DNA of 64,000 nucleotides. Source: Schmidtea nova (taxonomy: Eukaryota). Position numbers and translations under genes: made by a program. The stretch covers positions 160,518,001-160,582,000 of the forward strand of contig CM097882.1 of assembly GCA_044892505.1 (NCBI GenBank), given 5' to 3'. A model generated the notes under the pieces. The model was not told the origin of the DNA, made no database searches, and was given only the letters and a program-made list of their open reading frames with translations. Of the stretch, positions 7,900 through 20,704 are shown one piece after another (position 1 is the first letter of the stretch; each line of letters opens with the position of its first letter).

Positions 7900-8119
7900 A
7901 ATAAATTATTATTTCTTCACCTTTATTAAATAAATTTAATTCAGTTATTTCCGAAATGGGATTTGTAAAAGTACAATTCTGCATTGATGTAGAATTTGAA
8001 AAAGATTGACAATTCCAATCTTTTATAATATCAAATTTCGCAAAACCCATGAGTGATATCTTTTTAGATGATGGTATTGCTCTATTAAGTGAAAAAATTA
8101 CTAAAGTCTGCGAAAATGG
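7900..8119 (+). pseudogene. Maverick/Polinton protein-primed DNA polymerase B, 5' part (interrupted by LTR element)
   Basis: Reads ...GFVKVQFCIDVEFEKD*...LSEKITKVCENG and continues in frame across the ATGG TSD into SNLSINKIKE at 22061. Confidence 0.7.
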
Positions 8120-9228
8120 TGTTGAGGTCCAAGATTTTTAGATCTCAACGCGCACTGGTGTACACTATAGTATATAATAATAAAATCAAGTCTTTTGAAA
8201 AATTTATTCAATAACAAAATTTACCAAATTCAAAAATCAAAAGTTATCAATTACGCTTTCAAATCAAAAGTTATCAATTACGCTTTCAAATCTTCACACT
8301 GTTTTATAAAGTTTATTTAAAGGATATTTTTTGCGTGTCCTACTGTGTGCTTGTTATATAATTAAATGTTATTTGTTTTATTTACTCTTTTAAATATGTT
8401 GGACCTTTTTGTACTGTCCTTTAATGTTAATGTTCTCGCAGGATTTCCCTTTGAGAATAATAAGGCGCAATTTTTGGTTGAAAGCAAGTTTCAAAAATTG
8501 TGGGGCAAATTTTAAAAATTTTCACTTCTTTAAATACTAAAGTTTTTCGTACTCGTTATTGAAATAATTAAAATAATTTCATCTAGATATTGAAACAATT
8601 AAAATAATTTCGTTATTGGAACAAAACAATTAAAACAATTTCAAAAATGTTGACTCGCTACCGAAACAAAATAATTAAAATAATTTCCTTTATCTATTTT
8701 TCCATGCTACAATTATGTTGCCCCGATTCTAATATCCGTTGAAATAAAATAATTTCAACATCCATTGAAATAAAATATTTCATTAAAAAGTACATAAATA
8801 TTAATAATAATTTTCTAAATTATATACATTTAAAAGAACTAAAATAATATATCGCATTCCCAACTAAAATAATAATATCCAATGTTGAATGTTCATATCA
8901 AATATTTACACTAGAAATAAAATATATACAAGAAATAATATATCACATTCCCAATAATAATATCAAATGTCGAATGTTAAGGATCAAATATTAAATATCA
9001 AATGTCGAATGTTAATCAAATATTAAATATCAAATGGATGTTGATATCCTGGTTGGTGCTTGGATTGATTGTGCACTGGGTACTGATTGATATTGGGTTC
9101 TGTTTCTTTTTGAATATTGGTTGTATCGACAGGCTCTGTATAAATAATAACTCTGTATTTGTTGCCCCCCACACTATAATTTTCTGATAGGAGGAATGTA
9201 TTGATGGGCTTACCTTCATCATCCAACA
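8120..9228 (-). repeat. 3' LTR (1109 bp)
   Basis: Matches 20953-22060; about 6 substitutions and one 1-bp indel seen by eye. Confidence 0.97.
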
Positions 9229-11122
9229 TTCCTCCCCGGGCCGTCAAAGTAATGTCCTCATTACCCTTGTCACACAATATTAAATCAATTCTTTTCTCTT
9301 TTATTTGAATTGTTGTTTTTCGAAATCCATTTTTTATCACAAGGTTTATCGTCTCCTCGTGCTCAATTTGTCTTCCAAAATGAGTGCAGAGATCTTTTTC
9401 TGAGACATACTTTTTGTCTTTGTCTATTATGAAGTCTGATTCTTCTGGTTCTGTCCAGTCGGCTAACATTTCAACGTTTGGTTCTGGTCCGATATCCTCT
9501 TCCATTATGTTGTATTTATTACTTGTTGATGGTTCTTCACTATCTTCTTCCATTTTGATGTCGTTACTGCTGGTTGAAGGTTCTTCTATGTTTTCATCTG
9601 CTGAGAAATATTCATCATCTATATCACATTCGTCCATTCTTTCATATAGAATATTTTGAATTTTGGGTTCTGCTTTGATTTCTCTAGTTGGAGCGATAAG
9701 TGGTATTTCTTCTTTTATGATCATGAGTTCATCGTCGTCACTGTCCATGAGCTCTTCCATGAATGACTTTTTTGGTTTGTAATGATTGGTTTTTGTTGAT
9801 TCCCCATGGGACGGCTCCATGCCTTCTCCATCTTCATATTCACTTTCTATCTCACCTTCTGCTTCGCTCTCTTTTTCGTTTTCGAATATTGTTTCTAGTT
9901 GTTCTTCTCCTTTTGCTTGTTTCCTTTTAAGAAGTGTTGCGGAATCCCATTTGACAACTTCTTCCCATTTATTTTCTGAGATATCGTAGATAACTTTTAA
10001 TAGCATTGTGGTGATCTTTGTTGAGAATGGTTCTGGTTGTCTCAATATATCATTTAACTTTTTATCTTTATGCCAACTTTTATGGTAATTGATTACCTGG
10101 TAAGCCAAATTTGATATTTTTATTTTTGGTGGGGCCACGTTTTTTACAAAAGAACACATGAATCGATCCTGTGCCATTTCTCTTATGCCCATAATGTTGT
10201 CCAGATCTATCGTCAATAGTTTTAACTTATCTATGATGTTGAATCCAACTATGATCTTTCCATAGAGAATGTTTCGAATTTCATTTAAGGCTTTATATTC
10301 GTCTTCATTTCCAATTATGTTTTCTTTTGTAGATTTAGTTTTTTCCGTGTAGAATTTTTCTACTTTCGTTCTTGGGGTGATGAACTTGTTATACAGAATT
10401 GCTCCTTTTTTGCTTCTGATACAAATTTCCACTGGTCTGAGATTTTTGTTTATATCTTGAACTACTTTTATATCCACAATTACAGTTAATGAATGCCTTT
10501 CTTCTGTCGTTAATTCTTGATTCGTGAATGATATCTTCTGGTTGATCATATCTTCATTAATTTGTAGGATTGAATGTATTGGGTTTAATTTTATGAACGG
10601 ATTTGGGATTGTCGGGATATATAGCACTTCGATTGCTATCACACATGGTAGGTTATTCATCTGCACTGTCAGCTCATTGAAATCGTTTGACATGCTTCTG
10701 TCTTTTCTTATTAACTTGATAACTGCTGAACAGTTGCTTGTGACAATTAACGGGATTTTATTTTGACATATTGCAACTTCTGTTTTTGTCATGTGGAATA
10801 TTAATCTGTGAGGGATTCTCTTGTTTTCTGCAACTTCTTTGTCGACGTTTTGGTATTTGTCGAAGGTTCCAATAAGCTCTTTGAGTTTCACTCTTCGGGC
10901 CTCATTGAATTTTATCAGATGCATTTCCCGTTCTTCTATTTCGACTTTCATGTCGTTTGGGATACATATTTGATTTGGGAAACTGCGAATTGTAATTGGG
11001 GTTCCATCAGTACATATCTTGTTCTGTAGATTTTTGTAAAAACTCATGTTGAGTTTGTTTATAAAACAAGTGTATTTCTGGTAGGTTCTTGATTGATTGA
11101 AATGAGGTTGATTTTGATTCAT
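9023..11122 (-). CDS. 699-aa accessory ORF: DEDDh (ISG20/REX4-like) exonuclease-like domain with degenerate catalytic motifs, acidic region, C-terminus encoded in U3
   Basis: VIVDIKVV...VEICIRSKKGAILYNKFITP...FYTEKT...EIRNILYGKIIVGFNI..KLKLL resembles REX4-family VAIDCEMV...G.VLYDKYVKP...RT.VSGI...LL.GRILVGH.L..DL..L. Intact ATG-to-stop ORF. Confidence 0.75.
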   Translation of the reverse strand: MNQNQPHFNQSRTYQKYTCFINKLNMSFYKNLQNKICTDGTPITIRSFPNQICIPNDMKVEIEEREMHLIKFNEARRVKLKELIGTFDKYQNVDKEVAENKRIPHRLIFHMTKTEVAICQNKIPLIVTSNCSAVIKLIRKDRSMSNDFNELTVQMNNLPCVIAIEVLYIPTIPNPFIKLNPIHSILQINEDMINQKISFTNQELTTEERHSLTVIVDIKVVQDINKNLRPVEICIRSKKGAILYNKFITPRTKVEKFYTEKTKSTKENIIGNEDEYKALNEIRNILYGKIIVGFNIIDKLKLLTIDLDNIMGIREMAQDRFMCSFVKNVAPPKIKISNLAYQVINYHKSWHKDKKLNDILRQPEPFSTKITTMLLKVIYDISENKWEEVVKWDSATLLKRKQAKGEEQLETIFENEKESEAEGEIESEYEDGEGMEPSHGESTKTNHYKPKKSFMEELMDSDDDELMIIKEEIPLIAPTREIKAEPKIQNILYERMDECDIDDEYFSADENIEEPSTSSNDIKMEEDSEEPSTSNKYNIMEEDIGPEPNVEMLADWTEPEESDFIIDKDKKYVSEKDLCTHFGRQIEHEETINLVIKNGFRKTTIQIKEKRIDLILCDKGNEDITLTARGGMLDDEGKPINTFLLSENYSVGGNKYRVIIYTEPVDTTNIQKETEPNINQYPVHNQSKHQPGYQHPFDI
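9229..9240 (-). promoter_or_regulatory. Polypurine tract
   Basis: Minus strand GGGGAGGAA immediately precedes the 3' LTR start TGTTGG. Confidence 0.85.
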
Positions 11123-11149
11123 CTTTGTTTTTGATTGGTATCGAATTGA

Positions 11150-11430
11150 TTTCTTGATATATTGATTTGAGAGATGATTAATAGGGTTTTGACGGTTTGA
11201 CAGAGATATAATTGAATATATTGAGATATTTGGGTAATTGTCGTAACGATTCGATTGGTCTATAGAATTGACGAGATTGATTGGGTATTTTGTATAGAGA
11301 TAATTGGTAGGGTTTTTTGATTGTTTGTTGTGACAGTTTAAAAAAGAGATGATTGTATTTATTGAGATTTTTGAATGGTTGTTGCAATGATTTGATTGGT
11401 GTGTAGAATTGACGAGATTGATTGGGTTTT
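11150..11430. repeat. Diverged tandem duplication of about 141 bp in the pol-ORF4 spacer
   Basis: gattggt.t.tagaattgacgagattgattgggt occurs at 11253-11286 and 11394-11427. Confidence 0.75.
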
Positions 11431-11587
11431 CGGAATTTGTTGGAACTTGCTTTGTTTTGCTCGTGTATTCTTTTCTAAAAATAAAGGATAAAGTTTTTTG
11501 TTTAAGGCGTATTGTCGGTTTAACCTTATACGCTATATAAATACGAATATATATATGATTTTAATTATTATTATTGACCAAAACGTA

Positions 11588-12375
11588 TTATACCAATGTG
11601 GATTTTGTATATTCACCTGGTATATATTTGCCCAAATGGAAATGTCCTGGTACATTTCTGACCAGTCGGCTCCGATACCGCTGCCTTTTCCACTTGTACT
11701 TTTTATAAATTTGTACGCTAGTTATTAAAGCTAAAACTGCTAATGCTATTATTGATGTTGTGATGACATAATAAGGCCAATGTGGCTTTTTATCCTCTTT
11801 ACGAAATGCTTGTAGTTCCTCTAAGTTATGTATCACTATTGGTCTTTCTTGCCTTATTTTGATAGGTTCTTGTTTTTGTTTTTTGGCATTGTATTGTTTT
11901 TGGAATTTGGCTATTCCAGTGCTTGTTGGTATTTCGTTTGTATGTGGTGTGGTATTTAGTATATTATCTGATGTCGTTGTTGTGCTTTTTATTCTATCGA
12001 GTGTTTTTGTTATGTTATGGTTTTTTGTTATATTCTTGGGTAATTGTTCTGTTTTTATTTTTTTGCATCTCCATGTTGTTGTATCTGTGTTTCTCTGTAT
12101 GCAGATTCTGTATATTGTATTAGGTGCTAGTTTTGTGAAATTAATATAGTTTCCTCTTTCGATTTCGTTGGTTGTTCTGTCGTCTTTTCCTTTTATCATC
12201 TTTGGGTTTTTCCCGTTCGTTGTTTGCATGTATAAATCAATTACTCCTCTATTTATGATAAATGCTCTAACTTCGTTTGTTGATATTTTTATTAATACTT
12301 TGTCAAATTCTATTGTTTCGGTTGAGCCAACAAATGTTATGATTGTTAAGAAGATAGCCGATATTATTAGTTTGT
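11588..12375 (-). other. Type-I membrane protein module fused after integrase (signal peptide, FN3-like domain, Thr-rich stalk, TM, basic tail)
   Basis: KLIISAIFLTIITFVGS (12325-12375); NFTKLAPNTIYRICIQ resembles the FN3 L.P.T.Y.ICV motif; STTTTS stalk; YYVITTSIIALAVLALITSVQIY (about 11704-11773) followed by KKYKWKRQRYR. Confidence 0.75.
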
Positions 12376-15300
12376 TATGAGATCTTAGATTATACTTGTG
12401 AGGTTTATCTATCGTGACCTCGGCTTCCGCCAACTTGCATCTGTTGACATGTACTACTATTGGATCCTCGTTTTTATGTTTTTGTAAGTGTAAATTCTCA
12501 TTTATTACTTTTACTACTTCATATGGGCCTTTATATGGTCTTGCTAATTTTGTTGTTTTTCCCTTTCCTACTTGTGGTGACATAAGTCTAACCTTATCAC
12601 CTACTTTAAAGTTGTGTGGTTTACTATTTTTGTCGTAGTCGGCTTTGTACTGTTCTTGTCTATATTTGACTTTTAGATTGGCTACTTTATACACTTCTTG
12701 CAGTTTTTCCTGCATTAGTGTGACATAATCTGGTGCATCTAAATATTGTGATACTCGAGGTTCAAATATTGTATCTATTGGTGTTGCTGGTTCTCTTAAA
12801 AACATTAAATAATACGGTGAATACCCTGTTGTTTCGTTTGGAGTGATATTATGAATGTATGTGCATTGACTTATGTATTCGTCCCAATCATTTTGATTTT
12901 TTCCTACAGAAACAGCTAGTCTGCTTAGTAATGTCCCATTAAATCTTTCTACTAGTCCATCAGTTTGAGGGTGATACGCTGTTGTGTTGATCTTTTGCAT
13001 GTTAAAAATATTAGCTACTCGTTTTATTAATTCACTAGTAAAATTTGTTCCTTTATCTGTTAATAATCTTTTGGGTGTGCCTATCTTGAAAATAATTTTT
13101 TCTATAAGCAATTTAGCAACTGTTTCTGCTGTTTCGTCTTTTGTTGGAAATGCTTCTGCCCATCTAGTAAAATAATCACTAAATACTAGTATATGTTTAT
13201 TCCCATTAATTGTAGTAGGTAATTTACATAGAAAATCCATTGCACATAGTTCCATTGGTGATGTCGTTGCTGGAATGGGATGTAACGGCGCTTTTGTTTT
13301 TGTACCTGTATTTTTTCTTGTTGCACATATTGTACACGCGTTACACCATCTCTTAACATCTTTCTTTAATTCTTCCCAGTAATATTTTTGTAATAATCTA
13401 CTTGCTGTCTTTCTAGATGATAAGTGACCTCCTAATGCTCCATCGTGATATTGTAGTAGGAGTATTTGTCTTAATTTCTGAGGTACTACTATTAGTTGCT
13501 TACCATTGAAATCTTCTATTACTACTAATTTCTTTGATATTTTATACTTTGAATTGTTTTCTTTTCTGATTTCATTTTTTATTTTACTGATCTCTGGGTC
13601 TTTCATCTGTTCCTCATATATATCGATTGGTTTTTCTGCTACTAGTGCAAATATTTCAAGTGCTCCTAATTCTGGTATTCTTGATAGTGTATCTGCGTTT
13701 TTATTTATTCTACCTGGTTTATATATAATTTTTAGGTGCATGTCTTGTATTTTCATTGCCCATTTAAATAATCTACTTGATGTATCTTTATGTTTCCATA
13801 AGCCTTCTAATGGTTTATGGTCAGTTCTTATTATCACTTCAGTCCCATATATGTATGGTTTGAATTGTTTTAGGGCGAATACTATTGCGTAACATTCTTT
13901 TTCTATTGTTGAATACCTCAGCTGTGCTCCTTTTAATGTTTTACTGGCATATGCTATTACGTAATCTTTCCCTTTTTCTTCTTCTTGGCCTAAGACTGCT
14001 CCTACGGCTTTCCCGCTGGCATCCGTCATTACTATAAACTGTTTTTCGAAATCTGGGTATCTTAACACTGGTGCTGTTATCAATCTTTCTTTTAGTTTAT
14101 TGAATGCTTCTTGATGTTCCTTTGTCCACTTCTTTTGTATCTTGTTAACTTTGCTGTTAATTTCTTGTACTATTAACACATTTTTGCATTCTCCTTTTGT
14201 TCTAATTCCCTTTGTTAGTTCTATTATCGGTGATGCTATCTTTGCATAATCTTGTATGAATTTACGATAGTACCCTGTTAGACCTAAAAACCCTTGTACT
14301 TGTTGTACTGTTTTTGGTATTGGGAATTTCTTTACAACTTCTATTTTTTCTGGATTTGGTTTTATCCCTTCTACTGTAACTATATGCCCTAGAAATAACG
14401 CCGAAGGTTCTGCCCATTTACACTTAGTTGGTTTAATTTTAATTTTTGCTTTTCTTAGTCTCTCGAGTACATTTGTTATATCTTTTAAGTGTTCCTCAAA
14501 TGTTTTTGATGATATTAGTATATCATCCATGTAAACTGCGCAATGTTGTACATTTACTAATATTGTGTTCATTAGGCGCTGAAATGTAGCTGGTGCGTTA
14601 GTTAACCCGAAAGGTAATCGTGTGTACTCATATAAACCATCCTCGATAACAAATGCTGTTTTTTCCGCATCCCCTTCCTCCATTTGAATTTGCATATATC
14701 CCTTATTTGCGTCAATAACTGAAAAATACTTAGCATCCCTAAGTTTATCGTATTGCTCTTGTGCTTTTGGGAATGGGTATGAATCTTTTACTGTTACATC
14801 ATTTAATTTACGATAGTCAATGCACATTCTTATTTCTCCGTCTTTCTTTTTAACGGGTACAATGGGTGATGCCCACTGTGAAAAACTCTGTTTTATTACA
14901 CCTGCATCGTTTAGTTCTTTGATTTGTCGTTTTATTTCCTCTCTTAACTTGTATGGTACGCTGTATGGTCTTTGTTTTATTGGTCTCGCATTACCTGTAT
15001 CTATTACATGTTTGATTATATCGGTATCTCCTAGATCAAATTCGTGTTTTGCAAAAACATCACTATATTTATCTATCAATGTTTGTAGTTGTGCTTGTTG
15101 TGTTATTGTTAAGTATTCATTATTAATTTTTACTTTGTCATATGATTTTATATTATTTATCTTACTAGGTTCGACTACTCCCTTGCCGTTATTATTCATC
15201 ACGCTTATCTCACTGACTTCGTACGTTTTTTCTAATTCACCTTTGAATAATTTTCCCAATTTCGTACCTTTGTGTATTTTAACATTACTTTTTTCATAAT

Positions 15301-15463
15301 TTGCTATTCTCAATGGTATTATTCCCTTTCTCGGAATTACGCATTCATTGGTTAGCATTATATTCTGATTTTGTATAATTGCCGTTTCTGGCTCAAAAAT
15401 AAAAGTGTCCTCACTTTTGATGTTAACTTTTAAGGGAATTATATGATCGCATTCATATTCCAA
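11588..15463 (-). CDS. pol: Pol segment: RT, RNase H, integrase (HHCC, core, GPY/F), then a C-terminal signal/FN3-like/TM module
   Basis: WASPIVPVKKKDG, MCIDYRKLN, LPFGLTNAPATFQ, YMDDILI; TDASG, EKEC, TDHKPL; H-GGH..C..C; MDF, TDKGTNF, GLVERFN; YKGPYEV. Continues ORF2 in frame across one TGA. Confidence 0.97.
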   Translation of the reverse strand: MEYECDHIIPLKVNIKSEDTFIFEPETAIIQNQNIMLTNECVIPRKGIIPLRIANYEKSNVKIHKGTKLGKLFKGELEKTYEVSEISVMNNNGKGVVEPSKINNIKSYDKVKINNEYLTITQQAQLQTLIDKYSDVFAKHEFDLGDTDIIKHVIDTGNARPIKQRPYSVPYKLREEIKRQIKELNDAGVIKQSFSQWASPIVPVKKKDGEIRMCIDYRKLNDVTVKDSYPFPKAQEQYDKLRDAKYFSVIDANKGYMQIQMEEGDAEKTAFVIEDGLYEYTRLPFGLTNAPATFQRLMNTILVNVQHCAVYMDDILISSKTFEEHLKDITNVLERLRKAKIKIKPTKCKWAEPSALFLGHIVTVEGIKPNPEKIEVVKKFPIPKTVQQVQGFLGLTGYYRKFIQDYAKIASPIIELTKGIRTKGECKNVLIVQEINSKVNKIQKKWTKEHQEAFNKLKERLITAPVLRYPDFEKQFIVMTDASGKAVGAVLGQEEEKGKDYVIAYASKTLKGAQLRYSTIEKECYAIVFALKQFKPYIYGTEVIIRTDHKPLEGLWKHKDTSSRLFKWAMKIQDMHLKIIYKPGRINKNADTLSRIPELGALEIFALVAEKPIDIYEEQMKDPEISKIKNEIRKENNSKYKISKKLVVIEDFNGKQLIVVPQKLRQILLLQYHDGALGGHLSSRKTASRLLQKYYWEELKKDVKRWCNACTICATRKNTGTKTKAPLHPIPATTSPMELCAMDFLCKLPTTINGNKHILVFSDYFTRWAEAFPTKDETAETVAKLLIEKIIFKIGTPKRLLTDKGTNFTSELIKRVANIFNMQKINTTAYHPQTDGLVERFNGTLLSRLAVSVGKNQNDWDEYISQCTYIHNITPNETTGYSPYYLMFLREPATPIDTIFEPRVSQYLDAPDYVTLMQEKLQEVYKVANLKVKYRQEQYKADYDKNSKPHNFKVGDKVRLMSPQVGKGKTTKLARPYKGPYEVVKVINENLHLQKHKNEDPIVVHVNRCKLAEAEVTIDKPHKYNLRSHNKLIISAIFLTIITFVGSTETIEFDKVLIKISTNEVRAFIINRGVIDLYMQTTNGKNPKMIKGKDDRTTNEIERGNYINFTKLAPNTIYRICIQRNTDTTTWRCKKIKTEQLPKNITKNHNITKTLDRIKSTTTTSDNILNTTPHTNEIPTSTGIAKFQKQYNAKKQKQEPIKIRQERPIVIHNLEELQAFRKEDKKPHWPYYVITTSIIALAVLALITSVQIYKKYKWKRQRYRSRLVRNVPGHFHLGKYIPGEYTKSTLV

Positions 15464-15519
15464 TTCAAATGCTTCTAATGCAACAACTTCTGTGAACTTG
15501 GATTTATGTTTAATTGCTT

Positions 15520-15850
15520 TTCTCTTTATCGTATTATCTGTTAAATCTATAATTCAATTTTCTAACTTGTTGAGTATATCGATTCCCAATATACATATGC
15601 TATTACATTCTTGCACCACTTTAAATATGTGGTTTATTACCTGTTCTGGTGTTTCGACTATTAGTTCTATGTCTCCCTTTAGTGGAATACGATGTGCTGA
15701 TAACGATACTACTTTATCCGTTGTGCTCATAATATTTCTTTTTTGATCATCTGTCAGTTGATCTTCTCTAATTAAGGATGTTGCTGCTCCTGTATCTACT
15801 AATGCATTTATGATTATATTGTTTATAATTATTCTAAGTCTTGGTCTTGC
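15520..15850 (-). other. Retropepsin aspartic protease domain (TGA at 15554-15556 near its C-terminus)
   Basis: RPRLRIIINNIIINALVDTGAATSLI...CILGIDILNKLEN*IIDLTDNTI. Confidence 0.92.
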
Positions 15851-18800
15851 TTCGTTTGCTGCATCTAATCGTTCCATTGTTTCGACTTCTAAGCTATAAC
15901 AACCATATATCTTTTTAGGTTCACAATAACAATTCTTGTTTTCTCTAGGAATTTTGATTTCTATATTTTCTTGTAGCTCTTTTAGTTGTTCTCTTTGGTT
16001 TTCATATAGTCCTTGTTGTGGTACATTTCCTCCATGTGATATATGCGCTTTAATTATTTCCTCATCGTTTTCATCATCTACCAGTAATTGCCTTTCTTCA
16101 CTCCTTTGGACTTTTATTAAACGTATTTCCTTGTCGTGTTTCGCCGTAATAAGATATTTAGCTATAAATGGGCACAAACATGCTAATAATTTATATGAAT
16201 TTCCAAATACTTGTTTTAGCTGTCTCAGTGATACTAGAGAAGAACATATCATTTTTAGTAATGCAACCGTATAATATATACCTAAGATTGTAGAAAACAT
16301 GTTTCCAAGGACTGCAAAGTATCCCCATATGCTATATAGTACTTTATATGCTACTTTTTTGAAGTATTCTTTTGATAATAACACATCAAAGTTGTAATTT
16401 CCTCCGTAACTTCCTTCGATAACTCTGTTAACCATTATTGAAAGTACTCTTTCTTTTTCGTTTGGAAATAGCATGTGTTTTCTTGCACTTTCTATAGCTT
16501 CTCTCGTATATATACCATTACTGTCCATATCGTTGATTTCTTTAAACTCTAATCTTTTTTCTAGCTCTATGAGTTCTAATTTGAGTGGTTTCATTGTCTC
16601 TTTTCTATCTGACATAGATATCCACATTTCGTCATTTATTTTGTATAATGGGTCTAATAGGTTAGTGCATTTTTCTATTTTTCTCGGTATATATGTTTTT
16701 TCTGTTAATATTCTAGTAATTGGTTGAAGGTATACCCTTTCTCCTTTATATATTACCGGTAATTCATTAGCGCACTGATTATTTGTTGCTAACGATACAC
16801 TAACAGGTTTACATTGAAATGTCTGTATCACTTCTCCTACTATCCTTGCAAATGTTCCTTCTTCTGAGAAGATTATTGGTGCCATTAAATCTGGGTTTGT
16901 TACCGCCACTGCCATTTTTGTCCTCAATATTTCTCTGTTGAGTTTGCAATCGCTCATAATTGTTGATTGATATACTTTATCTAATTGTACTAGTTGGTTA
17001 TGATAGAAAAAATCGATTTTATTGTTGAAGTATGATGCAAGTTTGACGTCGAATTTATTTACTTTTTGTTTTGCATCTTTGACTTCCTCTTTGCTTATGT
17101 ATATCCCTTCATAATTAGTTTGTATTATTTCCTTACCACATTTTACACTTTTCCTTTTACTAACAAACCTCATTGCTTCGTTTTCAGATTCTGACATATA
17201 TATTGTTGGTGTATCTTTTTCTTGTACAATTGTTGTTTTCCTTTTTTGATCTCTCACCCTTTTTGAGTCTACTTCTGTGAACTGTTTTCCTTTGATTTCC
17301 CTAAATTTTAATGATTTTAATTTTGTTAACTGACAATCGTATTTATCTATTTTGTATATTAGCATTGATTCTCCTGTATCGCAATAAGATTCTTCTAATG
17401 TACAAAATTTGTATATCATCATTTTCTTTGAGCTGCTGTCGAATGATGCTTTGAACTTTCTCAGTTCTACCATGTAGTGTCTCCTTACTACAACATTACT
17501 CAGTTTTTCGCCCCATATTGTATATTCTCCTCCTTCACAATATCCTCCTTTTGATGTCCATCCCACGACATTTACATCTTGTCTCATTTTTGCCCCTATC
17601 CTTGCTTCTAGTTCTATTCCTTTATGACCGCTATATTTTACTTTCTTTGTTTTAAATGCATCTTCACACTCTATTGGCGACAATATTACTGCTTCGGGTG
17701 TCCACGTAGGTTTTAACACTGTTCTTGCCCCAACATGACATATATATGCTTCCTCCTGATACTTTACTATGCACTCTTTAGCCTCTGTATGAATAAAGTC
17801 TGATTCTTGATAAACATGGAATCTTTGAGGCTCTGACATGATTAATTTAGTTGGATTTGCTTCAGGGCAATTTTCAACATCCAACAGTGAGTATTTTTGT
17901 CCCCACTTTGGATTTTGACAATCGTATGCTACCATTGCATTGCCCCCCTTGATTAAATCTAATAACAAAGTGATTATGACTATTACTATGGAGGTTATCG
18001 ATTTACTCTCTGTCTTTGGTTTTACTGTTGCTTTCTTTATTAATTGTTTTATTACATCATCTGTATCACTCTCTTTATTCGTCGTATCTTTATCATATAA
18101 TACTTTCCATCCTCCTTTCTTTTTTATCCATGGTATTGCCTCTACTTTCAATCTTTTAAACATCATTGTTGCTACTTTTTCTAATTGCTCTTTTGGATTT
18201 TCCTTTAGGAGCTTTTTATATCTTGCGGCCAAGTATGCCATGGCCGTTATTATTTTATCTTTATCTATCCCTGTATTAAACAGGATTTTTAACACTGTTT
18301 TTTCATTTGCTTCCTCTGTAGCTAGTTTTTTAGTATCCTTTTTAATTAACATCATCCTTTCAGTTATATTTTCAATTAGTACTGTTGGCTTTGTTTCTGG
18401 AAATAGCTTAATATTTATTGCTTTTATTACTTCTTTTATTTTGTTTACGTCCTTATTATCGTCTTGATACTCTGATTGTTTATGTTTATGTTGATTTGCA
18501 ATCTCTCTTAATCGTTCTGCTGTCTTCCTATTCTCCGATTTTTCTATTATTTCTGATTTTCGAGGTCTTCCTCTACCTCGTTTTGATGTTTCTGCATCTT
18601 TTGTTTTTGCTTCCTCAGCTATTCTTTCTATTGTTTCTTGTAAGTTGCTATACTTTTCATCTATAGGTTTAAATATAATTTCTTCATCCATTACTGATTT
18701 CTTTGTTTCGCTAGGTGATTTATCCCATAGCCTAAATAATCTATCAAAATCGTTTTCTTCATTTATACTCAGCTCAACCGACGGTACTGGCGTCACTATT

Positions 18801-19000
18801 TCATCGATCATTTGTTTTTCTACTGTGGCTACCACAATATTATCACTTACTGGGTTTATCCCATAATCGATTAAGTACTCGTCACTTAATAATTCTATTC
18901 CGTTAAAATATAATTTTATTACATCTTTCTCTCCTATGGTTCCTGGCCATTTGGCTCTTACCATTCGTTTTAATTTGCTCACTTTAGTGCAAGGATGCAT
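15554..19000 (-). CDS. Middle polyprotein segment: ubiquitin-like, AT-hook, Bcl-2-like, signal peptide, chuvirus-G/gB-like glycoprotein, TM, aspartic protease
   Basis: See sub-features. Protease ALVDTGAATSLI ... ILGIDIL at the C-terminus. Confidence 0.92.
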   Translation of the reverse strand: MHPCTKVSKLKRMVRAKWPGTIGEKDVIKLYFNGIELLSDEYLIDYGINPVSDNIVVATVEKQMIDEIVTPVPSVELSINEENDFDRLFRLWDKSPSETKKSVMDEEIIFKPIDEKYSNLQETIERIAEEAKTKDAETSKRGRGRPRKSEIIEKSENRKTAERLREIANQHKHKQSEYQDDNKDVNKIKEVIKAINIKLFPETKPTVLIENITERMMLIKKDTKKLATEEANEKTVLKILFNTGIDKDKIITAMAYLAARYKKLLKENPKEQLEKVATMMFKRLKVEAIPWIKKKGGWKVLYDKDTTNKESDTDDVIKQLIKKATVKPKTESKSITSIVIVIITLLLDLIKGGNAMVAYDCQNPKWGQKYSLLDVENCPEANPTKLIMSEPQRFHVYQESDFIHTEAKECIVKYQEEAYICHVGARTVLKPTWTPEAVILSPIECEDAFKTKKVKYSGHKGIELEARIGAKMRQDVNVVGWTSKGGYCEGGEYTIWGEKLSNVVVRRHYMVELRKFKASFDSSSKKMMIYKFCTLEESYCDTGESMLIYKIDKYDCQLTKLKSLKFREIKGKQFTEVDSKRVRDQKRKTTIVQEKDTPTIYMSESENEAMRFVSKRKSVKCGKEIIQTNYEGIYISKEEVKDAKQKVNKFDVKLASYFNNKIDFFYHNQLVQLDKVYQSTIMSDCKLNREILRTKMAVAVTNPDLMAPIIFSEEGTFARIVGEVIQTFQCKPVSVSLATNNQCANELPVIYKGERVYLQPITRILTEKTYIPRKIEKCTNLLDPLYKINDEMWISMSDRKETMKPLKLELIELEKRLEFKEINDMDSNGIYTREAIESARKHMLFPNEKERVLSIMVNRVIEGSYGGNYNFDVLLSKEYFKKVAYKVLYSIWGYFAVLGNMFSTILGIYYTVALLKMICSSLVSLRQLKQVFGNSYKLLACLCPFIAKYLITAKHDKEIRLIKVQRSEERQLLVDDENDEEIIKAHISHGGNVPQQGLYENQREQLKELQENIEIKIPRENKNCYCEPKKIYGCYSLEVETMERLDAANEARPRLRIIINNIIINALVDTGAATSLIREDQLTDDQKRNIMSTTDKVVSLSAHRIPLKGDIELIVETPEQVINHIFKVVQECNSICILGIDILNKLEN
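16140..17935 (-). other. env: Envelope glycoprotein domain, chuvirus-G / herpes-gB-like (class III fusogen-like)
   Basis: Preceded by a hydrophobic signal (SITSIVIVIITLLLDLIKGGNA). Starts VAYDC..YSLLDVENCP. Cys-rich ectodomain with CG..I.QTNYEGIYI, FARIVGEVIQTFQCKPV, CANELPVIYKG.RVYLQPITRIL. Hydrophobic TM region VLYSIWGYFAVLG...LLKMIC. Confidence 0.8.
18092..18523 (-). other. Bcl-2-like helical domain
   Basis: BH1-like ILFNTGIDKDKIITAMAYLAA and BH2-like EAIPWIKKKGGWKVL (W at 18107-18109) with Bcl-2-like spacing, followed by a hydrophobic anchor. Confidence 0.65.
18554..18583 (-). other. AT-hook motif
   Basis: KRGRGRPRKS. Confidence 0.8.
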
Positions 19001-19054
19001 CTTTTGTTTAATACTAAAAAATTAATTATCATTTGATTCAATCGTTACATTTAG
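18824..19054 (-). other. Ubiquitin-like domain spanning the gag stop codon
   Basis: LNVTIESNDN*FFSIKQKMHPCTKVSKLKRMV...IKLYFNGIELLSDEYLIDYGI matches the Ub pattern (V.P.TKV..LK; L.F.G..L.D...L.DY.I). Confidence 0.7.
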
Positions 19055-20704
19055 TGTTTCATGCAATTTTTCATTTTTTCTTATATATTCTCCATAACAT
19101 TTCAGCATCTCTTTTATTTCTATTTCTAATTCAAATACTCTCGTTACATTTTGTCTCTTTACCATCATTGGTATTAAATTTCTAAGTCTCTCTAAATCAA
19201 TCCCATTAACCTGTATTTTATTGATTACTCTTAATGTTTCATTGTCATCAAACGGTTGCTTATGCAATACCTCTTTAAATTCCTCTATTAATTCTTTTTG
19301 TCTATTTTCTTCTGTAAGAAATATTTCATCTGCTTCTCTAATTTCCTTTAACTCATCATTATCAATATCTACCTCATTTGTAAAGGTGCTAAATTCATTT
19401 ATAGACATTTCAAGTTTTCTCTCAATAAGTCTTCCATATTGAGTTTTAAATTCTTTTAGTTCCTCTCTTAATATATTTATTTCTTTATTTGCTGATTCAA
19501 GCTCAGCACTATTTACCTGTTTTATCTCAGGCTCATTTTTAAATCTTACTCTTATTGGTGAATCTGCTCGTGGTTTATTACATACCTTTGCTAGGTGACC
19601 ATACTTTTGGCAATTATAACATTTTATTTGTCCATTAAAATTCACTTTATCTCTACCATCATTATTATAAGTATTTCGCCTCACTGGGCTATCTTGCCTA
19701 TTTCTCGAATTATCTCTATATCTATTATCTCTTCTATTATATTCGAAGCGACTATCTCTATTATTTTTATTATATCCACTGTAACTGTTTCTGTTATTAC
19801 CAGAACGACTATCTCTAAAATTATCTCTGTTGTCTCTATCATTATCTCTATCAAAACGATTGTCTCTAAAACTGTCTCTATTATTATTTCTTTGATAACT
19901 ATCTTTAAAATTATTTCTATTTCTATTATCGAAATTTTTATTTCCTGGACTATTAAACCTTCCCCTGTTTTCAGGTGATTGGCTTCTATTAGGACTAAAT
20001 TTTCTTCTATTATTAACAAATTTCAAGTATAATTGTTTCATTTCTTCCCAGGGAATACTGTCATCCTTATTTCTCAACTCAGGTTTTACCTCGGGTTGTT
20101 TTTCAACTTCTACAGCATCTACCTCTGGTTTAAATCTATCTCTTTGTATTGCTTCAATGCGTTTTGCCTTTTGAACTAACTCATTTAAGTCTTCATACTC
20201 AATTGTAATTAATGCTTTGTATAAGTATTTTTGGATGCCGTTCCAAAACTGATCCTCAATTAATTTACTAGTGTGATCTCCGGCACCAAATGCCTTTTTT
20301 GCTAATTCTGTTATCGTGTATATATATTCACCTACTGATTCTCTGGCTCCTTGGTATCTACTTCTAGATTTTTGAACATTTATTTTTTGTAAGTCTCGAT
20401 CTATTACTATTTCTTTTCTAAGGTTTGTAACTAACTCTTGATAATTAATGCCTTTACATGCTAAATTATTGTATGCCTGTAATGCGTATCCCTTTAAGTA
20501 TAATGGGATTCGTTGTTTTAATTCATTTGTTTTCCATCCGCAAGCTTCTGCATACTGTGCGATTTCGGCAAAAAAGTCGTCGAACTTTTCAGGGTCTCCT
20601 TTATATGATTCTATTGGTAATGTTTTTATAAAATTATGGCTGCTTATGTTGTCTGTATTACTGTTACTTCCACTATTGCTGCTGCCTGTACTATTATTAC
20701 TCAT
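19022..20704 (-). CDS. gag: Gag: capsid domain, R/D/N-rich region, CCHC zinc knuckle, coiled-coil extension
   Basis: YKGDPEKFDDFF..AEACGW; RYQGARESVGEY; CYNCQKYGHLAKVC. First ATG at 20704 (the track start at 20737 is TTG). Confidence 0.93.
   Translation of the reverse strand: MSNNSTGSSNSGSNSNTDNISSHNFIKTLPIESYKGDPEKFDDFFAEIAQYAEACGWKTNELKQRIPLYLKGYALQAYNNLACKGINYQELVTNLRKEIVIDRDLQKINVQKSRSRYQGARESVGEYIYTITELAKKAFGAGDHTSKLIEDQFWNGIQKYLYKALITIEYEDLNELVQKAKRIEAIQRDRFKPEVDAVEVEKQPEVKPELRNKDDSIPWEEMKQLYLKFVNNRRKFSPNRSQSPENRGRFNSPGNKNFDNRNRNNFKDSYQRNNNRDSFRDNRFDRDNDRDNRDNFRDSRSGNNRNSYSGYNKNNRDSRFEYNRRDNRYRDNSRNRQDSPVRRNTYNNDGRDKVNFNGQIKCYNCQKYGHLAKVCNKPRADSPIRVRFKNEPEIKQVNSAELESANKEINILREELKEFKTQYGRLIERKLEMSINEFSTFTNEVDIDNDELKEIREADEIFLTEENRQKELIEEFKEVLHKQPFDDNETLRVINKIQVNGIDLERLRNLIPMMVKRQNVTRVFELEIEIKEMLKCYGEYIRKNEKLHETLNVTIESNDN

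What the first reader, a model, noticed from the sequence alone, without database searches (positions are those of the whole stretch)
18092..18523. Bcl-2-like domain directly before the env signal peptide
Seen: ILFNTGIDKDKIITAMAYLAA followed about 40 aa later by AIPWIKKKGGWKVL, then a hydrophobic segment about 35 aa further on. Established: Bcl-2 proteins have BH1 (LF.DG.NWGRIV), BH2 (WI...GGW..F) and a C-terminal membrane anchor, and many DNA viruses carry vBcl-2 with degenerate BH1. Inference: after signal peptidase cleavage, the env signal could double as the tail anchor of a retroelement-encoded apoptosis modulator. I do not know of Bcl-2 cargo in LTR retrotransposons.
Basis: partly seen in the sequence, partly recalled or inferred. 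Interest (0 to 1): 0.85.

Follow-up and report, generated by a model that had tools for sequence, protein, structure and literature searches.

The report
Bcl-2 cargo in flatworm env retroelement
A virus-like jumping gene, likely from a planarian flatworm, carries a protein piece predicted to fold like the cell-death regulator Bcl-2 just before its envelope protein, where it would likely be tethered to the ER membrane and may dampen cell death; the same cargo was already reported in related giant elements.

Summary
Real, but largely known. Window 18083-18475 (minus) is a Bcl-2-fold domain: Pfam PF00452 E 1e-6, an element-only profile finds Bcl-xL at E 9e-8, and an alignment-based AlphaFold model (pLDDT 85) matches Bcl-2-family structures ahead of everything else. 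It lies in a young 13.9-kb Ty3/gypsy element with the order gag, ubiquitin-like, Bcl-2, signal, gB-type env, protease, RT, IN. About 30 of 150 scored sister copies read this as one ~3,070-aa frame; this copy has two stops. The domain is kept in four families here and in 4 of 150 public homologues. The hydrophobic segment is env's own signal peptide (peptidase pattern in 18 of 19, also in relatives without Bcl-2), so cleavage would leave the domain on the cytosolic ER face; this is inferred. Function is open: the BH1 glycine needed for Bax/Bak binding is replaced in 9 of 9 element domains, and constraint is weaker than on env. BCL2-env-protease in frame was published for planarian Burro elements (PMC6431247), and the closest compact family is catalogued (Smed_errantivirus_3, PMC13524379). 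New here: the full fold prediction, presence in compact families, one gain with losses, and the signal-anchor reading.

The parts
20953..22060 (-). 5' LTR (TGTTG...CAACA), 1108 bp
   Evidence: 6 substitutions and 1 indel against the other LTR; 4-bp target-site duplication ATGG at 8116-8119 and 22061-22064
20933..20950 (-). primer-binding-site-like stretch (starts TGG); tRNA not identified
   Evidence: sequence
19022..20836 (-). gag frame with CCHC knuckle; ends in an in-frame stop in this copy
   Evidence: PF00098 E 3.3e-4; the stop is shared by 1 of 29 sister loci aligned
18821..18991 (-). ubiquitin/SUMO-like domain (weak match)
   Evidence: PF11976 E 0.042, PF00240 E 0.095; same position as in Burro per PMC6431247
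18557..18583 (-). AT-hook-like RGRGRP motif
   Evidence: PF02178 E 0.049; a similar motif is seen by eye in P0002, P0003, P0005 and P0015
18083..18475 (-). Bcl-2-fold domain, 8 predicted helices; alpha2 and alpha3 run together as one helix
18224..18286 (-). degenerate BH1 region (NWGR position reads DKDK)
18098..18139 (-). BH2 region (W...GGW)
   Evidence: invariant in 15 of 15 rows
17936..18001 (-). env signal peptide; predicted peptidase cut two residues before AYDC; would-be membrane anchor of the upstream piece
   Evidence: small -3/-1 residues at this offset in 18 of 19 proteins, against 2-6 of 19 at the eight other offsets
16049..17935 (-). gB-type (Monjiviricetes) fusion glycoprotein, transmembrane segment about 16232-16324
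   Evidence: PF24664 E 4e-89; TM by eye
15554..15850 (-). aspartyl protease; frame ends in an in-frame stop in this copy
   Evidence: PF00077 E 1.7e-7
11588..15553 (-). RT, RNase H, integrase, then a second signal-like plus TM module (11591-12370)
   Evidence: hydrophobic segments by eye
9023..11560 (-). ORF4, ISG20-like exonuclease fold at about 10154-10414; ends inside the 3' LTR
   Evidence: E 3.6e-4 to 1wlj_A
8120..9228 (-). 3' LTR, 1109 bp, preceded by a polypurine tract (9229-9237)

Best explanation
This is a Bcl-2-like domain, predicted to have the full eight-helix fold, carried in frame between gag and the env signal peptide of a multi-copy Ty3/gypsy retroelement; it was likely captured once from a host gene, would be left tethered to the cytosolic face of the ER by the cleaved env signal, and likely dampens death signalling in the cell that expresses the element. 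Steps: (1) shown: one reading frame gag-Ubl-Bcl2-signal-env-PR-RT-IN in sister copies. (2) Predicted: the fold. (3) Inferred: the internal signal threads env into the ER lumen, signal peptidase cuts two residues before AYDC, and the upstream piece stays in the membrane with its N-terminus in the cytosol. (4) Inferred: the element's protease frees Gag from it. (5) Inferred and weakest: it acts on host death or autophagy regulators through an altered groove or another surface, as BH-less viral Bcl-2 proteins do.
For: Fold: the element-only profile A1 finds Bcl-xL at E 9.1e-8, and all 60 rows shown are Bcl-2/Bcl-xL. The model has pLDDT 84.7, pTM 0.82. Foldseek gives 12 matches at E<=0.001, and every listed row is Bcl-2/Bcl-xL. 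VIA rows 1-35 are Bcl-2-family or poxvirus Bcl-2-fold chains, Z 12.7-5.8 over up to the whole domain, while unrelated chains start at 4.9. The top viral hit is a herpesvirus v-bcl2. Retention: four families only 16-44% identical to the window in this domain keep it at the same place, as do 4 of 150 public homologues. All 9 carriers fall in one starred env clade of 14 rows (95/87). Element domains group apart from 9 host paralogues (83/96). dN/dS between subfamilies A and A2 is 0.12-0.20. The BH1 arginine position is basic in 7 of 9. The signal pattern holds in 18 of 19. Context: Burro elements carry IAP and BCL2-like domains (PMC6431247), and the Burro1 IAP is reported to protect stem cells (seen only as cited in PMC13465017).
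Against: The NWGR glycine is replaced in 9 of 9 element domains and the tryptophan in 8 of 9; Bcl-2 G145A fails to bind Bax/Bak (PMC5841437, passages). However, 7 of 9 host paralogues here also lack that glycine. Alpha3 is shortened in the model. Constraint is much weaker than on env or RT (0.03) and no stronger than on the neighbouring linker (0.14). Among 44 family-A copies, shared variants in the domain are 4 synonymous to 9 non-synonymous, against 26 to 0 in env (small numbers). 10 of 14 public polyprotein homologues examined lack it, 5 of them inside the carrier clade, so it is dispensable; some of these may be N-terminally cut gene calls. The single-sequence model gave pLDDT 60 and no Bcl-2 match. 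The best VIA Z values (12-13) sit at the level the tool flags for helical bundles. There are no expression, processing or binding data.
Confidence: 0.5

Rival explanations
1. A Bcl-2 fold repurposed for something other than apoptosis: an ER-tethered scaffold that inhibits innate signalling (like poxvirus A52/B14/N1, recalled) or helps hold Gag next to env during assembly.
For: BH1 is degenerate in 9 of 9 and alpha3 is short, while the hydrophobic core and W...GGW are kept. Neighbouring cargo is ubiquitin-like here and TRAF/MATH and RING in related elements of this genome.
Against: Structural ranks favour cellular pro-survival Bcl-2 proteins (Z 12-12.7) over A52/N1/B14 (Z 6.3-7.8). Relatives without the domain keep intact frames and the same signal, so assembly does not need it.
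Confidence: 0.25
2. A relic: an old capture now kept mainly as a soluble in-frame spacer under relaxed constraint and being lost lineage by lineage.
For: dN/dS is like that of linkers. Shared family-A variants are mostly non-synonymous. There are several losses inside the clade.
Against: The full helix register and W...GGW are kept across families 16-44% identical in the domain, with a confident fold. The tail linker varies in length (24-56 aa) while the domain core does not.
Confidence: 0.2
3. A pro-death or dominant-negative Bcl-2 that promotes lysis of the producing cell and release of particles.
For: Bcl-2 G145A can act as a dominant negative (PMC5841437, passages); the element encodes a fusogen.
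Against: No BH3-like motif with the Gly-Asp core is visible in alpha2 (by eye). Other cargo of this element group is anti-apoptotic (IAP).
Confidence: 0.05

Closest known systems
Burro (GYPSM1) giant gypsy-like LTR elements of Schmidtea and Dugesia (Grohme 2018, not readable here; Arkhipova & Yushenova 2019, PMC6431247, section 7 read whole)
   Same: One polyprotein with gag, a SUMO-like PF11976 domain, BCL2-like domain, mononegavirus-like env, protease, RT, RH, IN; env in frame between gag and pol.
   Different: The window element is 13.9 kb with 1.1-kb LTRs and a ~3,070-aa frame, against more than 30 kb and 4,873 aa. No MATH, BIR or ankyrin in it. It has an extra post-integrase membrane module and an exonuclease-like ORF4. 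Burro sequences could not be compared directly.
Smed_errantivirus_3 and the GAG-ENV-POL HSV/gB-type errantiviruses of Platyhelminthes (eLife 2026, PMC13524379; passages and supplementary rows)
   Same: Same ORF order and env class. The window env matches the listed Smed_errantivirus_3 env at about 45 of the first 67 residues, and family C resembles Smed_errantivirus_1 (both by eye). Listed spans are about 14.5-18 kb.
   Different: The paper's main text has 0 occurrences of 'Bcl', 'Burro' or 'apoptosis'. Whether its elements carry the domain was not checked.
Viral Bcl-2 proteins of DNA viruses (KSHV Bcl-2, BHRF1, ASFV A179L, M11L, N1L)
   Same: Captured Bcl-2 fold with degenerate BH motifs (structure matches).
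   Different: Here it is a polyprotein domain of a retroelement with no tail anchor of its own other than the env signal.
Signal peptides that anchor the upstream protein, e.g. HCV core-E1 and flavivirus capsid-prM (recalled, no call)
   Same: An internal glycoprotein signal remains on the C-terminus of the preceding cytosolic protein at the ER.
   Different: The upstream protein there is the capsid, and it is often released by a second cleavage; this is untested here.

Membership tests
Bcl-2 family (fold) | eight-helix bundle around a central hydrophobic helix | tested here: met
   predicted, not solved; the single-sequence model failed
Bcl-2 family (fold) | PF00452 curated score | tested here: inconclusive
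   window 29.6 bits < 31.4; family B 34.7 and 16 of 30 fetched loci are element copies over the cut-off
Bcl-2 family (fold) | BH2 W...GGW | tested here: met
   15 of 15 rows; 8 of 9 family representatives have W and P0006 has Y
canonical pro-survival Bcl-2 | BH1 NWGR with Gly and Arg | tested here: not met
   Gly in 0 of 9, Trp in 1 of 9, basic residue in 7 of 9
canonical pro-survival Bcl-2 | binds BH3 helices and blocks apoptosis | not testable with these tools
canonical pro-survival Bcl-2 | own C-terminal tail anchor | tested here: inconclusive
   a hydrophobic segment lies 24-56 aa after GGW, but it has signal-peptide features and is present in relatives without Bcl-2
Ty3/gypsy GAG-ENV-POL errantivirus (gB-type env) | LTRs, PBS, PPT, TSD; PR-RT-RH-IN order | tested here: met
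Ty3/gypsy GAG-ENV-POL errantivirus (gB-type env) | gB-type env between gag and pol | tested here: met
   PF24664 E 4e-89; by-eye match to Smed_errantivirus_3
Burro | SUMO-like, BCL2, env, protease order in one frame | tested here: met
   (the SUMO-like match is weak)
Burro | giant size (>30 kb, ~4,900-aa ORF1) | tested here: not met
   13,941 bp; ~3,070 aa
Burro | MATH, BIR and ankyrin cargo | tested here: not met
   no such Pfam hit in the four frames; they occur in a different element of this genome
Burro | dUTPase-like domain between protease and RT | tested here: inconclusive
   a ~100-aa spacer is present; no Pfam or PDB hit
Burro | RT phylogeny with Burro1-4 | not testable with these tools

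The most novel reading that the evidence does not exclude
A whole clade of compact planarian endogenous viruses, not only giant Burro, encodes a working viral Bcl-2. It uses the env signal peptide as its ER anchor and protects the producing stem or germ cell through a non-NWGR groove, so that making envelope obligately co-produces a death suppressor.
Probability: 0.3. Interest if true: 0.7.

Novelty: new member of a known kind. Interest (0 to 1): 0.42.

Why it matters
A Bcl-2-like motif in Burro has stood since 2018-2019 as an untested annotation, and the functional work I could trace concerns its IAP (seen only as cited in PMC13465017). This finding adds a confident full-fold prediction, domain boundaries, and carriers about half Burro's size with hundreds of young copies. 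It also adds natural relatives with and without the domain and a concrete topology. Together these make it testable whether a retroelement carries a true vBcl-2 and whether such cargo bears on planarian stem-cell survival. It is not a new kind of system.

Tried and rejected
Single-sequence AlphaFold of 17942-18481: pLDDT 60, no Foldseek match at E<=0.001; superseded by the alignment-based model. Word-indexed homologue searches found nothing: longer proteins, 2988 candidates; A1, 1413 candidates. ESM Atlas gave only sub-0.9 primase-like leads for the domain and no usable hit for the post-integrase module. Single-sequence PDB search gave only E 0.05. Complex prediction with a host Bak-like BH3 candidate (L105:5396-5578:-) was not available, so there is no verdict on binding. 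Expression: no RNA holder listed; the four unlabelled contig runs cover the element but say nothing on expression or splicing. No giant Bcl-2-bearing Burro frame was found in G000. BIR and MATH searches led to a multi-copy element with SUMO-like/protease/ankyrin, TRAF and IAP ORFs, with no RT, env or Bcl-2 match in 3 of 3 neighbourhoods examined. The search with P0016 returned no answer. Absence is therefore not shown. The host donor gene is unresolved: element domains form their own group, and the A1 profile's best host hit is L036 at E 2.5e-7, with others close behind. dUTPase-like and FN3-like guesses made by eye were not confirmed. Rejected: chance motif; host gene nested in the element (the domain is in frame in 150 of 150 scored matches apart from a few with stops); filing under Burro proper. 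Earlier scan findings: none returned. Grohme 2018 and Lee 2026 are not held, so their text and supplements may already say more about this domain.

Full report
Observation. The BH1-like stretch is at 18224-18286, the BH2-like stretch at 18098-18139, and the hydrophobic core starts 36 residues after GGW. PF00452 matches at E 1e-6, 29.6 bits, just under the 31.4 cut-off. The single sequence aligns without gaps to Bcl-xL alpha4-alpha8, though only at E 0.05.

The element. The domain sits in a 13,941-bp LTR element, 8120-22060. It has 1.1-kb LTRs differing by 6 substitutions and 1 indel, TG...CA ends, a 4-bp target-site duplication, and PBS-like and polypurine stretches. Pfam gives CCHC gag, then a weak SUMO/ubiquitin-like hit (E 0.042), Bcl-2, a Monjiviricetes fusion glycoprotein (E 4e-89), protease, RT, RNase H and integrase. 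The three frames are one register broken by two stops in this copy. In the genome, 150 of 2085 candidates were scored (84-100% identical), and about 30 of them, counted by eye, lie in open frames of 3,054-3,082 aa. The host is likely a planarian: the env resembles published Schmidtea mediterranea elements, and Burro-type cargo elements are abundant.

Is it Bcl-2? Three more families in this genome keep the domain at the same place. Family B includes a copy reading INWDR at BH1 and scoring 34.7 bits, over the cut-off. Families C and D score E 1.6e-4 and 5.5e-4. An alignment of 15 element copies, with no host genes in it, has W and GGW invariant at 16-96% identity to the window. Its profile finds Bcl-xL at E 9.1e-8, and all 60 rows shown are Bcl-2 or Bcl-xL. 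AlphaFold on that alignment gives pLDDT 84.7, pTM 0.82 and eight helices, with alpha2-alpha3 as one helix. Foldseek lists only Bcl-2/Bcl-xL, 12 at E<=0.001, TM 0.51-0.67. VIA ranks 35 Bcl-2-family or poxvirus Bcl-2-fold chains first (Z 12.7-5.8, up to 131 residues aligned; the poxvirus fold assignment is recalled), and unrelated chains begin at 4.9. Viral hits are led by v-bcl2 proteins at E 0.01. Against this, the single-sequence model was poor and matched nothing, and Z near 12-13 is at the tool's caution level for helical bundles. The uniform ranking and the independent sequence evidence decide it.

Distribution and origin. Of 150 public homologues of ORF2 (unnamed, mostly ENA), 4 match the element profile upstream of env (E 4.6e-15 to 5.4e-6; next best 0.065). 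I built an env tree of 33 rows: 5 genome families or subfamilies and 28 of the 150, namely the 14 polyprotein-type hits plus 14 others as outgroup. All 9 carriers lie in one starred clade of 14 rows (95/87), with 5 non-carriers inside it. The label needs 4 changes, at least 2 forced by starred branches, which fits one gain and several losses without proving it. Some non-carriers begin only 140-230 residues before env and may be cut gene calls; P0002 has 891 upstream residues without the domain. In a tree of 9 element and 9 host domains the elements form one side (83/96, not starred), so the capture is old and the donor unresolved.

The hydrophobic segment. In 19 proteins, 9 with and 10 without Bcl-2, small residues stand at -3 and -1 for a cut two residues before the env AYDC motif in 18 of 19, against 2-6 of 19 at eight other offsets. 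The uncharged core is 14 residues in the window, and its distance from GGW is 24-56 residues. It is therefore env's signal peptide and exists independently of Bcl-2. If the polyprotein is made as one chain, cleavage leaves Gag-Ubl-Bcl2-signal in the ER membrane facing the cytosol. Splicing, protease sites and intramembrane release are all unknown.

Function. The NWGR glycine is replaced in 9 of 9 element domains and the tryptophan in 8 of 9, while the arginine position stays basic in 7 of 9. G145A abolishes Bax/Bak binding in human Bcl-2 (PMC5841437, passages). BH motifs may be absent in viral Bcl-2 proteins (PMC7022251, passages), and 7 of 9 host paralogues here also lack the glycine. dN/dS between subfamilies A and A2 is 0.12 and 0.20 for the two halves of the domain, 0.14 for the upstream linker and 0.03 for env and RT; deeper pairs are near saturation. 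Among 44 family-A copies, shared variants are 4 synonymous to 9 non-synonymous in the domain, against 26 to 0 in env. The fold is thus conserved over long times under modest constraint. I put an ER-tethered death-signalling modulator at 0.5, a non-apoptotic scaffold at 0.25, a relic at 0.2 and a pro-death role at 0.05. No binding prediction or expression data could be obtained.

What is known. PMC6431247 (section 7 read whole) reports a BCL2-like motif in Burro-2, -3 and -4 (citing Grohme 2018), a PF11976 domain before it, and env homology to mononegavirus glycoproteins between BCL2 and protease, in frame. PMC13524379 (passages and supplementary rows) catalogues GAG-ENV-POL gB-type elements in flatworms. 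Its Smed_errantivirus_3 env matches the window at about 45 of 67 residues by eye, and its main text has no 'Bcl'. PMC13465017 (passages) cites Lee 2026 for a functional IAP in Burro1; that paper and Grohme 2018 are not held. PMC8532177 and PMC11410931 were seen as passages only and add no Bcl-2 detail. The element shares Burro's core order but fails its size and MATH/BIR/ankyrin features, so I file it as a compact GAG-ENV-POL errantivirus related to Burro by architecture. I found no description of the signal-as-anchor reading or of Bcl-2 in the compact families in searches; 'errantivirus' plus 'Bcl-2' gave 0 papers. The library lacks most subscription journals.

Verdict. Observation confirmed; interpretation partly supported; new member of a known kind; interest 0.42.

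Noticed in passing
window 9023-11560 (-); L075/L076 and L077/L078 ORF after pol: ORF4 has an ISG20-like DEDDh exonuclease fold (E 3.6e-4). By eye its catalytic motifs look degenerate in families A and B but intact in family C. It ends inside the 3' LTR.
   Followed up: partly
window 11591-12370 (-): After integrase the frame continues into a second signal-like segment, a ~180-aa ectodomain and a TM helix; a similar tail is seen in families B, C and D. No Pfam, PDB or Atlas hit.
   Followed up: partly
L091-L092 (G000:C1:284332000-284343600) and many copies: A young multi-copy element with SUMO-like/protease/ankyrin, RING-TRAF-MATH and BIR-RING (IAP) ORFs but no RT or env nearby; likely a non-autonomous Burro-like derivative.
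   Followed up: partly
L075:2587-9999, L077:2358-9998: Families C and D appear by eye to carry two or more ubiquitin-like repeats before the Bcl-2 domain.
   Followed up: no
L031-L039, L042, L050, L052, L056, L059: At least 14 host-like Bcl-2 loci; 7 of the 9 aligned lack the BH1 glycine, so this host's own family is divergent too.
   Followed up: partly
window 19022-19024 and L007: The stop after gag is shared with one other copy (1 of 29 aligned), which suggests a common source copy or conversion.
   Followed up: no
P0007: A public protein labelled 'Flavobacteriaceae bacterium' (MAG) is a gag-env-pol element of this clade; likely animal DNA in a bacterial bin.
   Followed up: no
window 42084-42490: Near-perfect 203-bp inverted repeat with a 1-nt spacer.
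   Followed up: no
window 8114-22063: Contigs of public runs join across the whole element; this may be an empty site or another copy of the flanking repeat.
   Followed up: no
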